The notes under the pieces were generated by a model. It did not search any database and was not told where the DNA came from. It saw nothing but the letters and a program-made list of their open reading frames with translations. 64,000 bases of DNA from positions 1,440,001 to 1,504,000 of the forward strand of contig CP084166.1 in the NCBI GenBank assembly GCA_021513695.1, given 5' to 3'. Positions within the stretch are counted from its first letter, which is position 1. Each line of letters begins with the position of its first letter. This stretch comes from Candidatus Heimdallarchaeum aukensis (GTDB lineage Archaea > Asgardarchaeota > Heimdallarchaeia > Heimdallarchaeales > Heimdallarchaeaceae). A program made the translations under genes and the position numbers. This document shows, piece after piece, positions 24,267 to 24,932 of this stretch.

Positions 24267-24932
24267 ATGGTCGCTAAAGATCAACTTGATAAGGAAGATA
24301 GAATAAAAAAGGGAGTAGAAGAGATTCTAAGCTTCAGAGGATATGAAATTAAAAAAATAAATACAGATGATGATTATATTGATTTTTACGCTGAAAAAAC
24401 TGATGAAGACGGAGAAGAAACAAATTTAATTGTCAGATTTCCTAGAAAAGCGAGCATAGGAGTAAAAACAATAAGAGAACTTGATCAATATAGAAAAGAT
24501 GAAGATATTCAAGATGCAATAATTATAGCAGAAGGAGCTTTAACTCACTATGCAAAAAGAGAATGTTTAGAACGAGGAGTGGAAATAATAAGTGGAACAA
24601 ATCCCCTTTTTAATATCTTTGATCACATAATGGTTCCACTTCATATAAAACTTGAAGATGATGAAGTTGAAGAAGTTTTAAAGAAATATCAAATAAAGAA
24701 GCATCAATTGCCAAAGATCCTAGACTCAGACCCTGCGATTAAAGCTATTCAAGCAAACCCAGGAGATATAATAAAGATAATTAGAAACCCAAACATGGGA
24801 GAAGCAGGAGTATATTATCGATATGTTATCAGATCTACATCAAGATTAAGGCTAGCAGCAAAAACTCAACGCTCCTCTTTAGAAGAAGAAGTTGTAGAAG
24901 ACATAGAAGAAGATATAGAAGAAGAACTTTAG
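24267..24932 (+). CDS. rpoH: DNA-directed RNA polymerase subunit H (Rpb5 homolog), full-length eukaryote-like form with N-terminal Rpb5 'jaw' domain
   Basis: C-terminal '[51 protein letters not shown]' is canonical RpoH/Rpb5-C. The N-terminal ~130 aa align with the eukaryotic Rpb5 N-domain (memory comparison with human RPB5). Acidic tail '[16 protein letters not shown]'. Confidence 0.8.
   Translation: [221 protein letters not shown]

What the first reader, a model, noticed from the sequence alone, without database searches (positions are those of the whole stretch)
24267..24932. Full-length, eukaryote-like Rpb5 (RpoH with N-terminal 'jaw' domain) in an archaeal genome
Seen directly: a 221-aa ORF whose last ~75 aa are canonical archaeal RpoH/Rpb5-C ('[42 protein letters not shown]'). 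Its first ~130 aa have no counterpart in standard archaeal RpoH (~80 aa) but align block-wise with the eukaryotic Rpb5 N-terminal domain: 'EEILSFRGYEIKK' with human 'MQLCHDRGYLVTQ', '[12 protein letters not shown]' with 'VGIKTIKVYCQRM', and '[16 protein letters not shown]' with 'RALIVVQQGMTPSAKQ'. An acidic tail is also present. Established: the Rpb5 N-domain (restriction-endonuclease-like fold, contacts downstream DNA and the jaw) is regarded as a eukaryote-specific elaboration. Inference: this lineage carries a 'eukaryotic-grade' Rpb5, fitting an Asgard-type archaeon and bearing on RNAP evolution.
Basis: partly seen in the sequence, partly recalled or inferred. Interest (0 to 1): 0.8.

Follow-up and report, generated by a model that had tools for sequence, protein, structure and literature searches.

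The report
Archaeal RpoH with Rpb5-type jaw domain
This Heimdallarchaeum gene encodes RNA polymerase subunit H carrying the extra N-terminal "jaw" domain that textbooks treat as eukaryote-only, and the same two-domain form is widespread in Asgard and Bathyarchaeia archaea, so this part of the eukaryotic polymerase probably arose in archaea.

Summary
The 221-aa ORF at 24267-24932 (+) is real and intact, and a continuous two-domain ORF is conserved in 26 species-level genomes. Residues 113-189 are a bona fide RpoH/Rpb5-C globe. Residues 1-112 form a confidently modelled, catalytically dead PD-(D/E)xK nuclease-like domain under strong purifying selection (dN/dS 0.016).

A profile of the N-domain alone retrieves eukaryotic Rpb5 as its top 11 PDB hits (E 5e-8). 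In a 1.84-billion-protein search, eukaryotic Rpb5 ranks ahead of any nuclease. The full-length model matches only full-length Rpb5 chains over both domains.

Three qualifications apply:
- The domain fails Pfam's Rpb5_N threshold and is classed as Mrr_cat/NA-iREase1.
- It lacks the eukaryotic insertion and sits between Mrr nucleases and Rpb5_N.
- It is not Heimdall- or Asgard-specific: Hodarchaeales, Jordarchaeia and many Bathyarchaeia have it.

The acidic tail is not conserved. NCBI annotation repeatedly clips the N-domain, which helps explain why it goes unnoticed. I found no report of it in the searchable literature. Whether a second, short rpoH exists elsewhere in the genome was not testable.

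The parts
24202..24226 (+). Two direct copies of CTTTTAAATCA (24202-24212 and 24216-24226). These are candidate archaeal TATA/BRE-like promoter elements about 40-65 nt upstream of the ATG.
   Evidence: Read directly from the sequence. The region is almost invariant between the window, L030 and H. endolithica PR6, although the genomes are only ~88-89% identical overall. The promoter role is inferred, not tested.
24253..24256 (+). GGAG, a possible Shine-Dalgarno-like element 10 nt upstream of the start codon.
   Evidence: Read directly from the sequence and conserved in all three aligned genomes. Inferred only.
24267..24602 (+). N-terminal domain, residues 1-112: a catalytically inactive PD-(D/E)xK (Mrr-like) fold homologous to the eukaryotic Rpb5 N-terminal 'jaw' module.
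24603..24836 (+). C-terminal RpoH/Rpb5-C globe, residues 113-190: the module that anchors the subunit to the largest RNAP subunit.
   Evidence: Pfam RNA_pol_Rpb5_C 89.8 bits (GA 23.5). NCBIfam RpoH equivalog NF007129 94.3 bits (cutoff 83). E 1.7e-18 to the T. kodakarensis subunit H chain 4qiw_H. R173 and R185, which align with yeast Rpb5 R200/R212 (the Rpb1 salt-bridge residues, PMC1802627), are invariant in A3, A4 and A7.
24837..24932 (+). Disordered C-terminal tail, residues 191-221, ending in an acidic run ([16 protein letters not shown]), plus the stop codon. It is variable and not conserved.
   Evidence: pLDDT < 50 for residues 192-221. Most other Heimdallarchaeaceae members have long Lys/Ala/Pro/Thr-rich tails here instead. 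In the 99.5%-identical strain L030 a 105-nt deletion (window 24872-24976) removes it.
24930..24962 (+). Three tandem copies of the 11-nt unit TAGAAAAACTT, starting at the stop codon and followed by a T-rich stretch. They place a TAG in each of the three frames.
   Evidence: Read directly from the sequence. Absent from L030 and from PR6. Function unknown.

Best explanation
The gene encodes RNA polymerase subunit H (Rpo5) of a Heimdallarchaeum species in a two-module form equivalent to eukaryotic Rpb5.

Shown:
- A C-terminal globe (113-189) matches RpoH models above curated cutoffs and keeps the two arginines that clamp the largest subunit in yeast.
- An N-terminal module (1-112) has a PD-(D/E)xK nuclease fold that has lost the (E/Q)xK catalytic motif.
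- That module's closest relatives outside the archaeal family are eukaryotic Rpb5 N-domains.
- Both modules are under strong purifying selection and are conserved as one ORF across Heimdallarchaeia, Jordarchaeia and Bathyarchaeia.

Inferred by analogy with Pol II:
- The globe docks on Rpo1.
- The charged tail (acidic here, basic and histone-H1-like in sister clades) is a lineage-variable accessory.

Evolutionary reading. An Mrr-type nuclease domain was fused to RpoH in archaea and inactivated. Eukaryotes later inherited it and added an insertion of roughly 15-25 aa.
For: ORF and domains.

Homology into the N-half. phmmer alignments to Arabidopsis NRPB5 cover query 36-188, and to human RPABC1 cover 49-185.

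N-domain-only profile. The top 11 PDB sequence hits are all Rpb5, E 4.8e-8 to 9e-3, with an end-to-end alignment to NRPB5 residues 1-111. In an exhaustive HMMER search of 1.84e9 proteins, eukaryotic Rpb5 appears at E 3.8e-9 to 1e-6, while Mrr nucleases appear only at ~5e-4.

Profile-profile. hhalign against eukaryotic Rpb5_N gives 98.2%, E 4.6e-14. Eukaryotic Rpb5_N is much closer to the archaeal domain (score 81) than to Mrr (44-49).

Shared derived motifs. Mrr 'LIQVK' becomes archaeal 'LIVRFP' and eukaryotic 'FVFFP', followed by '(I/V)G(V/I)KTI(R/K)'. R24, G65, T93, R173 and R185 are invariant across archaea and eukaryotes.

Conservation. 26 genomes carry it. dN/dS is 0.016 for the N-domain and 0.05 for the C-domain. 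There is one copy per locus.

Background. The role of the Rpb5 N-module and of R200/R212 comes from PMC1802627.
Against: - The Pfam Rpb5_N gathering score is not reached by any of 53 archaeal members, and only 4 of 53 reach E <= 0.01.
- The gene is never next to rpoB. I could not scan a whole genome for a second, short rpoH, so sole-copy status is unproven.
- Whole-chain TM-scores to Rpb5 are only ~0.45 (rmsd ~7 A). The predicted relative orientation of the two domains therefore differs from that in Pol II, or is undefined in the isolated model.
- No physical evidence places this protein in RNAP or the N-domain at the jaw.
- A simple NJ tree did not resolve which archaeal clade is sister to eukaryotes.
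Confidence: 0.75

Rival explanations
1. Independent (convergent) fusion. Archaeal RpoH and eukaryotic Rpb5 each acquired a PD-(D/E)xK domain separately. On this view the archaeal N-domain is simply an Mrr-family domain and not the ancestor or orthologue of the eukaryotic jaw module.
Against: Eukaryotic Rpb5_N is far closer to the archaeal domain than to Mrr (score 81 against 44-49). Eukaryotic Rpb5 outranks every nuclease in the exhaustive search and in the PDB search. Domain order and junction are the same. The two share the same inactivating replacement (x-F-P in place of (E/Q)xK) and share the RGY, GVKTI and T-x-x-AK motifs. The Mrr comparison set was chosen as the best nuclease hits to this very profile, which inflates that score.
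Confidence: 0.12
2. Horizontal transfer in the opposite direction. A full-length Rpb5 gene moved from an early eukaryote or a giant virus into archaea and then spread.
For: The distribution among archaea is patchy (Heimdallarchaeia, Jordarchaeia, Bathyarchaeia; short forms elsewhere). NCLDV carry Rpb5 homologues, for example ASFV 8q3b_E.
Against: The archaeal domains lack the eukaryotic insertion and retain more Mrr-like sequence, so they look ancestral rather than derived. The C-domain matches the archaeal RpoH equivalog model and is ~50% identical to Thermococcus subunit H. In the NJ tree eukaryotes form their own clade outside all archaeal groups rather than nesting among them. The archaeal family is deep and diverse, with hundreds of 90%-identity clusters.
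Confidence: 0.05
3. A paralogue rather than the RNAP subunit. The genome also has a canonical short rpoH, and this two-domain protein does something else, such as acting as a nuclease-related or regulatory factor that mimics subunit H.
For: The gene is never adjacent to rpoB. The whole-genome copy number could not be checked.
Against: The NCBIfam equivalog cutoff is passed. The Rpo1-clamping arginines are invariant. The only 'short' Heimdallarchaeaceae RpoH recovered (P0151) is the same gene with a clipped start. The whole str cluster is dispersed in the complete Heimdallarchaeum genomes PR6 and PM71 (PMC10833476), and genuinely short and SAP-fused rpoH genes are also stand-alone. The nuclease catalytic motif is lost.
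Confidence: 0.06
4. Artefact: two adjacent genes joined by a sequencing or assembly error, or an over-extended start codon.
For: NCBI annotation of near-identical MAGs calls only the C-terminal 100 aa (P0151) or 82 aa (P0195).
Against: The upstream frame is open and identical in L030. The continuous ORF is conserved in 26 genomes and many metagenomes. N-domain substitutions against PR6 are 13 synonymous to 1 non-synonymous. The AF2 model of the N-domain has pLDDT 89.
Confidence: 0.01

Closest known systems
Eukaryotic Rpb5 / RPABC1 (Pfam RNA_pol_Rpb5_N PF03871 + RNA_pol_Rpb5_C PF01191), subunit shared by Pol I, II and III
   Same: The order of the two modules is the same. The C-globe keeps the Rpb1-clamping arginines. 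The N-module is an inactive PD-(D/E)xK fold with the conserved a1 helix (…R-I-K/R…RGY), the 'x-F-P…(I/V)G(V/I)KTI' strand-turn-helix and the T-x-x-AK loop. Full-length Rpb5 chains are the best structural matches.
   Different: The archaeal N-module is 112 aa, against ~128-142 aa in eukaryotes, and lacks the eukaryotic insertion between a1 and the core strands. It does not reach the Pfam Rpb5_N threshold. It retains more Mrr-like sequence. It carries a variable charged C-terminal tail that eukaryotic Rpb5 lacks. It serves a single archaeal RNAP.
Canonical archaeal RpoH / Rpo5 (~75-85 aa; NCBIfam NF007129; for example 4qiw_H, 8cro_H, 2waq_H)
   Same: The C-domain is ~50% identical, with TM ~0.8 on the target.
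   Different: Canonical subunit H has no N-terminal domain and usually lies directly upstream of rpoB (PMC10833476). This gene is 221 aa and stands alone.
Mrr_cat (PF04471) type IV restriction endonuclease catalytic domain, and NA-iREase1 (PF22722, 'inactive restriction endonuclease')
   Different: The catalytic (E/Q)xK is replaced by V/A-R-F-P, and no catalytic residue is conserved across the wider archaeal family (only R24 is invariant, with G65 and E106 nearly so, in the N-domain of A7). The domain is fused to an RNAP subunit rather than to a specificity, NTPase or NACHT module.
Viral Rpb5 homologues (for example ASFV vRPB5, 8q3b_E)
   Different: Much lower sequence identity (13-16%) than to cellular eukaryotic Rpb5 (24-28%).
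Rpo13 of Sulfolobales RNAP
   Same: Possible functional analogue. It sits near the N-terminus of Rpo5 and contacts double-stranded DNA (as summarised in PMC13257274).
   Different: It is an unrelated small helical protein encoded by a separate gene and restricted to some Thermoprotei. No homology was tested or claimed.

Membership tests
Archaeal RNA polymerase subunit H / Rpo5 (NCBIfam NF007129 equivalog; Pfam PF01191) | C-terminal globe matching the curated models above their cutoffs | tested here: met
   NF007129 94.3 bits against a cutoff of 83. PF01191 89.8 bits against 23.5. 53 of 53 archaeal two-domain members hit PF01191.
Archaeal RNA polymerase subunit H / Rpo5 (NCBIfam NF007129 equivalog; Pfam PF01191) | Conserved arginines that salt-bridge to the largest subunit (yeast Rpb5 R200 and R212) | tested here: met
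   R173 and R185 are invariant in A3 (with eukaryotes), A4 and A7. Their role is taken from PMC1802627.
Archaeal RNA polymerase subunit H / Rpo5 (NCBIfam NF007129 equivalog; Pfam PF01191) | Gene position directly upstream of rpoB in the rpoH-rpoB-rpoA cluster | tested here: not met
   There is no rpoB-sized ORF in the window or in any of the first 29 fetched loci L001-L029, nor in L031-L034. The cluster is known to be dispersed in Heimdallarchaeum PR6/PM71, so this feature is not strictly defining in Asgard.
Archaeal RNA polymerase subunit H / Rpo5 (NCBIfam NF007129 equivalog; Pfam PF01191) | Sole rpoH copy in the genome and physical presence in purified RNAP | not testable with these tools
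   There is one copy per locus, and no independent short Heimdallarchaeaceae RpoH was recovered. No whole-genome scan or biochemistry was possible.
Eukaryotic Rpb5 N-terminal domain (Pfam PF03871; SCOP 'eukaryotic RPB5 N-terminal domain') | Score at or above the Pfam gathering threshold (27 bits) | tested here: not met
   23.2 bits for the full length and 25.4 bits for the N-half alone. None of 53 archaeal members passes, and only 4 of 53 reach E <= 0.01.
Eukaryotic Rpb5 N-terminal domain (Pfam PF03871; SCOP 'eukaryotic RPB5 N-terminal domain') | PD-(D/E)xK fold lacking the catalytic residues | tested here: met
Eukaryotic Rpb5 N-terminal domain (Pfam PF03871; SCOP 'eukaryotic RPB5 N-terminal domain') | Located immediately N-terminal to an Rpb5_C globe in one polypeptide | tested here: met
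   Conserved in all family members.
Eukaryotic Rpb5 N-terminal domain (Pfam PF03871; SCOP 'eukaryotic RPB5 N-terminal domain') | Specific sequence relationship: Rpb5_N is the nearest family outside the query's own family | tested here: met
   PDB profile search: the top 11 hits are all Rpb5. Exhaustive search: eukaryotic Rpb5 ranks ahead of nucleases. hhalign E 4.6e-14.
Eukaryotic Rpb5 N-terminal domain (Pfam PF03871; SCOP 'eukaryotic RPB5 N-terminal domain') | Eukaryote-type insertion between helix a1 and the core sheet (domain length ~128-142 aa) | tested here: not met
   The archaeal domain is 112 aa. The alignments show gaps of 3 and 12 residues (hhalign) and a ~17-25 column gap (MAFFT) relative to eukaryotes.
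Eukaryotic Rpb5 N-terminal domain (Pfam PF03871; SCOP 'eukaryotic RPB5 N-terminal domain') | Occupies the lower jaw and lies next to downstream DNA in the polymerase | not testable with these tools
   No multimer modelling or experimental structure is available. The whole-chain superposition (TM ~0.45) says nothing about placement in the complex.
Mrr_cat restriction endonuclease (Pfam PF04471) | Score at or above the gathering threshold | tested here: met
   35.1 bits against 21. 52 of 53 members hit.
Mrr_cat restriction endonuclease (Pfam PF04471) | Catalytic D...(E/Q)xK motif | tested here: not met
   In the hhalign alignment to Mrr nucleases, Q54 aligns with V56 and K56 aligns with F58. D39 is invariant only within Heimdallarchaeaceae and not in the wider family. 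The domain should not be filed as an active nuclease.

The most novel reading that the evidence does not exclude
The Rpb5 'jaw' module is one of only two structural features regarded as both typically eukaryotic and common to Pol I, II and III. On this reading it is an archaeal invention. An Mrr-type nuclease domain was fused to RpoH and inactivated before the Asgard/TACK split, or was exchanged early between those groups. It persisted in Bathyarchaeia, Jordarchaeia and Heimdallarchaeia. Eukaryotes then inherited it vertically from a Heimdallarchaeia-like ancestor, whose version is the most Rpb5-like, and only added an insertion. Archaeal RNAPs with a eukaryote-type lower jaw therefore exist today and can be studied.
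Probability: 0.5. Interest if true: 0.75.

Novelty: new variant of a known kind. Interest (0 to 1): 0.62.

Why it matters
The accepted view is that the Rpb5 N-terminal module is found only in eukaryotes. Zaros et al. 2007 (PMC1802627) say so directly, and Steczkiewicz et al. 2012 (PMC3424549) list PF03871 as Eukaryota only.

If the archaeal two-domain RpoH is its orthologue, several things follow:
- Another piece of the 'eukaryotic' transcription machinery moves back into archaea, as happened for Rpb8/Rpo8.
- There is a concrete evolutionary intermediate between a restriction-type nuclease and the jaw module.
- The origin and function of the lower jaw become testable in archaeal systems, through cryo-EM or reconstitution of a Heimdall- or Bathyarchaeia-type RNAP and through domain swaps in yeast.

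There is also a practical annotation problem. Domain libraries label the module Mrr_cat/NA-iREase1, and NCBI start calls sometimes cut it off. Catalogues of eukaryotic signature proteins built on those annotations would miss it.

Tried and rejected
1. Pfam as an arbiter of Rpb5_N membership. The hits are sub-threshold, so I relied on profile, exhaustive and structure searches instead.

2. Synteny with rpoB as proof of orthology. The two-domain gene is stand-alone in Heimdallarchaeaceae, Hodarchaeales, Jordarchaeia and Bathyarchaeia. Short and SAP-fused forms are stand-alone too. The test is uninformative.

3. Looking for a short Heimdall RpoH paralogue.
- The only candidate, P0151 (100 aa), is the same gene with a clipped start.
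- The 113-119-aa Bathyarchaeota 'short' forms start inside the N-domain.
- The C-domain census listed only its best 120 of 6639 hits, so it could not settle per-genome copy number.

4. NJ tree of 61 representatives. It separates eukaryotes, Heimdall/Hod clades and a Bathyarchaeia-type clade, but it does not resolve the sister group of eukaryotes. I do not use it as evidence for vertical descent.

5. AFDB50 fold search for organism names. The library was unavailable.

6. Literature. Nine full-text searches and the relevant papers yielded no report of an N-terminally extended Rpo5 in Asgard or Bathyarchaeia. The library is incomplete, so prior description elsewhere cannot be excluded.

7. Apparent second RpoH hits in L004, L010 and L016. 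These were spurious sub-alignments within the same ORF.
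Full report
**Observation**

The ORF at 24267-24932 (+) is present as described: ATG start, 221 aa.

The domain boundaries need correcting.
- The RpoH core is residues 113-189 (Pfam RNA_pol_Rpb5_C 115-187, 89.8 bits; NCBIfam RpoH equivalog NF007129, 94.3 bits against a cutoff of 83).
- The core is followed by a 32-aa tail that AlphaFold2 leaves disordered (pLDDT < 50).
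- The extra N-terminal part is residues 1-112.

Homology with eukaryotic Rpb5 therefore runs 65-80 residues upstream of the part shared with short archaeal subunit H.

**Is the N-terminal part real coding sequence?**

Yes.
- Twenty-nine close homologues (56-85% identity) all have the same two modules.
- A scan of GTDB species representatives found 26 genomes in which tblastn covers residues 1 to ~197. The best is the complete chromosome of Ca. Heimdallarchaeum endolithica PR6, at 95% protein identity.
- The window is 99.5% identical in DNA to a Heimdallarchaeaceae MAG (L030) and ~88-89% identical to PR6. It therefore comes from a Heimdallarchaeum species.
- Between the window and PR6 the N-domain has 13 synonymous and 1 non-synonymous differences (dN/dS 0.016). 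The C-domain has 21 and 6 (dN/dS 0.05).
- A sequencing-error fusion or an over-extended start is excluded.

Public annotation errs in the opposite direction. NCBI protein MHA1316430.1 (P0151, 100 aa) is this same gene called from internal Met122, although the upstream frame in L030 is open and identical. An 82-aa Hodarchaeota 'RpoH' sits in a 90%-identity cluster whose other listed members are all 191 aa. Several 113-119-aa Bathyarchaeota entries begin in the middle of the N-domain.

**What is the N-domain?**

*Pfam.* The domain is assigned to Mrr_cat (35.1 bits, GA 21) and NA-iREase1 (28.5 bits, GA 27). RNA_pol_Rpb5_N scores only 23.2 bits, or 25.4 bits for the N-half alone, below its GA of 27. 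Across 53 diverse archaeal members the counts are Rpb5_C 53, Mrr_cat 52, NA-iREase1 51 and Rpb5_N 4 (at E <= 0.01; none reaches GA).

Fold alone therefore places the domain in the nuclease superfamily without discriminating further.

*Sequence.* Sequence does discriminate.
- A profile built only from N-domains (A2, 112 columns, no RpoH core) and searched against all PDB sequences returns eukaryotic Rpb5 as its top 11 hits (E 4.8e-8 to 9e-3). No nuclease is significant. The alignment to NRPB5 is end to end (profile 1-98 to residues 1-111).
- The same profile, searched with HMMER against 1.84 billion representative proteins, finds 51 proteins. These are the Heimdall family, a set of more distant two-domain archaeal proteins, eukaryotic Rpb5 (E 3.8e-9 to 1e-6), and Mrr nucleases only at ~5e-4.
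- Profile-profile comparison gives N-domain against eukaryotic Rpb5_N 98.2%, E 4.6e-14, score 81, 33% identity.
- N-domain against the best Mrr nucleases gives 97.8%, E 1.1e-12, score 72.
- Eukaryotic Rpb5_N against those nucleases gives 92-95%, score 44-49.

The archaeal domain is thus an intermediate that links Rpb5_N to Mrr-type nucleases. The Mrr set was selected as the best nuclease hits to this profile, which inflates its score.

*Full-length structure.* The full-length model (pLDDT 77.5; N-domain 85-92) matches full-length Rpb5 chains as its top 36 Foldseek hits in PDB, at E ~1e-12 over 200-220 aligned columns. Short archaeal subunit H follows, matching the C-domain only, and then nucleases at E ~1e-3. 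Whole-chain TM is only ~0.45, so the relative orientation of the two modules in the isolated model is not that seen in Pol II.

**Active site and conserved motifs**

In the alignment to Mrr nucleases the catalytic 'L-I-Q-x-K' strand corresponds to 'L-I-V-R-F-P' here and to 'F-V-F-F-P' in eukaryotic Rpb5. The Glu/Gln and the Lys are both lost, and the replacement is shared.

D39 is invariant only within Heimdallarchaeaceae. Across the 53-member archaeal set the N-domain keeps only R24 as invariant, with G65 and E106 nearly so. There is therefore no conserved catalytic constellation, which fits the NA-iREase1 ('inactive restriction endonuclease') match.

The following residues are conserved across archaea and eukaryotes (A3):
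- R24, in the RGY that ends helix a1;
- G65, in (I/V)G(V/I)KTI;
- T93, in T-H-Y-A-K, which aligns with eukaryotic T-P-S-A-K;
- R173 and R185 in the globe.

Zaros et al. (PMC1802627) report several relevant facts about yeast Rpb5. Helix a1 is critical in vivo. The N-module occupies the lower jaw and cross-links to downstream DNA about 15 nt ahead of the bubble. R200 and R212, which align with R173 and R185 here, form the salt bridges to Rpb1.

**Distribution**

A profile of diverse two-domain members retrieves named proteins from:
- Heimdallarchaeaceae;
- Hodarchaeales;
- Jordarchaeum (Asgard);
- several Bathyarchaeia/Bathyarchaeota (TACK).

It also retrieves eukaryotic Rpb5 over ~80% of the query at E 1e-36 to 1e-29. 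A C-domain profile finds 6639 RpoH-like clusters, and its best 120 are almost all proteins of 176-207 aa with PF01191 + PF22722 + PF04471. The architecture is therefore abundant, not a Heimdall peculiarity and not Asgard-specific.

Clade-specific profiles give a soft signal:

| Clade | Score vs eukaryotic Rpb5_N | Score vs Mrr |
|---|---|---|
| Heimdallarchaeaceae | 79 | 73 |
| Other Heimdallarchaeia | 73 | 70 |
| Hodarchaeales | 61 | 57 |
| Jordarchaeum | 53 | 50 |
| Bathyarchaeia-type | 60 | 76 |

A simple NJ tree did not resolve the sister group of eukaryotes.

**Genomic context**

The gene stands alone between a BpsA_C-like gene plus a zinc-ribbon gene upstream and cofD, a Dus-like gene and cofC downstream. 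The same order is seen in L030 and PR6.

No rpoB or rpoA is nearby in the window or in any fetched locus of any clade. This is expected: the str/L30e cluster is reported as completely dispersed in the complete Heimdallarchaeum genomes PR6 and PM71 (PMC10833476). Genuinely short and SAP-fused rpoH genes are also stand-alone.

Each locus has one RpoH domain. I could not scan a whole genome, so a second rpoH elsewhere is not formally excluded.

Two copies of CTTTTAAATCA (24202-24226) and a GGAG (24253-24256) upstream are nearly invariant between species and may be the promoter and ribosome-binding signals. This is inference only.

**Tail**

The acidic tail is not part of the conserved design. Most other Heimdallarchaeaceae have long Lys/Ala/Pro/Thr-rich repeats here instead, some matching the H1-like family PF07382. 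The 99.5%-identical strain L030 has a 105-nt deletion (window 24872-24976) that removes the tail and the three 11-nt repeats at the stop codon.

**Mechanism (shown versus inferred)**

Shown: a two-module protein with an RpoH globe that keeps the Rpo1-binding arginines, plus a dead-nuclease module specifically related to Rpb5_N, both strongly constrained.

Inferred by analogy with Pol II: the globe docks on Rpo1. The N-module extends the lower jaw along downstream DNA and offers helix a1 and the T-x-x-AK loop as a surface for DNA, chromatin proteins or factors. The charged tail tunes this in a lineage-specific way.

The most economical evolutionary reading has three steps. An Mrr-type domain was fused to RpoH in archaea. 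It lost its catalytic residues. Eukaryotes then inherited the fusion and added an insertion.

**Comparison with what is known, and novelty**

The literature treats the Rpb5 N-module as eukaryote-only (PMC1802627; PMC3424549, which lists PF03871 as 'Eukaryota'). Nine full-text searches, and reading of the relevant Asgard and RNAP papers, found no mention of an extended Rpo5. This includes a 2026 survey of archaeal small-subunit evolution that models Rpo5 from Asgard and Bathyarchaeota genomes.

The library is incomplete and these proteins have long been in public databases. I therefore rate the finding as a new variant of a known kind (an archaeal, compact, pre-eukaryotic form of full-length Rpb5), with moderate-to-high interest and a real chance that it has been noted somewhere I could not search.

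Noticed in passing
window 24837-24932; homologues P0005-P0028; L030: The C-terminal tail of this RNAP subunit is hypervariable. It is acidic in the Heimdallarchaeum clade. In sister Heimdallarchaeaceae it consists of Lys/Ala/Pro/Thr-rich repeats of roughly 50 to 150 aa (some hit the H1-like family PF07382). In a 99.5%-identical strain it is deleted by a clean 105-nt gap. A basic tail next to downstream DNA would be a plausible DNA clamp, and an acidic one could mimic DNA or bind histones. Neither idea was tested.
   Followed up: partly
window 24930-24962: Three tandem copies of TAGAAAAACTT begin at the stop codon and place a TAG in all three reading frames. A T-rich run follows. The repeat is absent from L030 and from H. 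endolithica PR6.
   Followed up: partly
L030 2680-3303 against the called gene 3001-3303; P0151, P0195, P0142, P0143, P0145, P0157: Public annotation repeatedly truncates this gene to its RpoH core by starting at an internal Met, giving products of 100 aa, 82 aa and 113-119 aa. The N-domain is left unannotated. Surveys based on deposited proteins would therefore undercount the two-domain form.
   Followed up: yes
P0047 (481 aa) and P0051 (349 aa, partial): These archaeal-looking proteins have two or three tandem copies of the N-domain followed by an RpoH core and a Lys-rich tail. P0053 (456 aa) is a eukaryote-like Rpb5 with three tandem N-domains. The jaw module has therefore been duplicated independently in some lineages.
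   Followed up: no
P0162 (133 aa), P0166 (135 aa; L036 6001-6408, on a 710-kb contig): Another kind of extended subunit H: a SAP (DNA-binding) motif fused N-terminally to the RpoH core. This suggests that adding a DNA-contacting N-terminal module to Rpo5 has happened more than once.
   Followed up: partly
P0241 (184 aa): One JGI record names an archaeal-type two-domain protein 'DNA-directed RNA polymerase I, II, and III subunit RPABC1'. An automated orthology assignment has thus already mapped it to eukaryotic Rpb5.
   Followed up: no
L003 (JBHLQZ010000273.1) and P0083: Records labelled 'Candidatus Thorarchaeota archaeon' encode proteins that belong to the Heimdallarchaeaceae (63% identity to the window protein) or Hodarchaeales clusters. 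The bins are probably mislabelled or contaminated, so they should not be read as evidence for the domain in Thorarchaeia.
   Followed up: no
window 22976-28532 (and the same order in L030 and L001): The neighbours are conserved: a BpsA_C-like protein, a zinc-ribbon OapC-like protein, rpoH, CofD, a Dus/DHO_dh-like protein, CofC, then an M24 peptidase. That is, a cofD/cofC (F420/lactyl-phosphate transferase-type) gene set lies directly downstream of rpoH in Heimdallarchaeum.
   Followed up: no
L028 485-5778 (context of P0038): In one distant two-domain lineage the gene follows an Arf-family GTPase and the proteasome-alpha/SBDS/Rrp4/Rrp41/Rrp42 exosome cluster, with a presenilin homologue nearby.
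   Followed up: no
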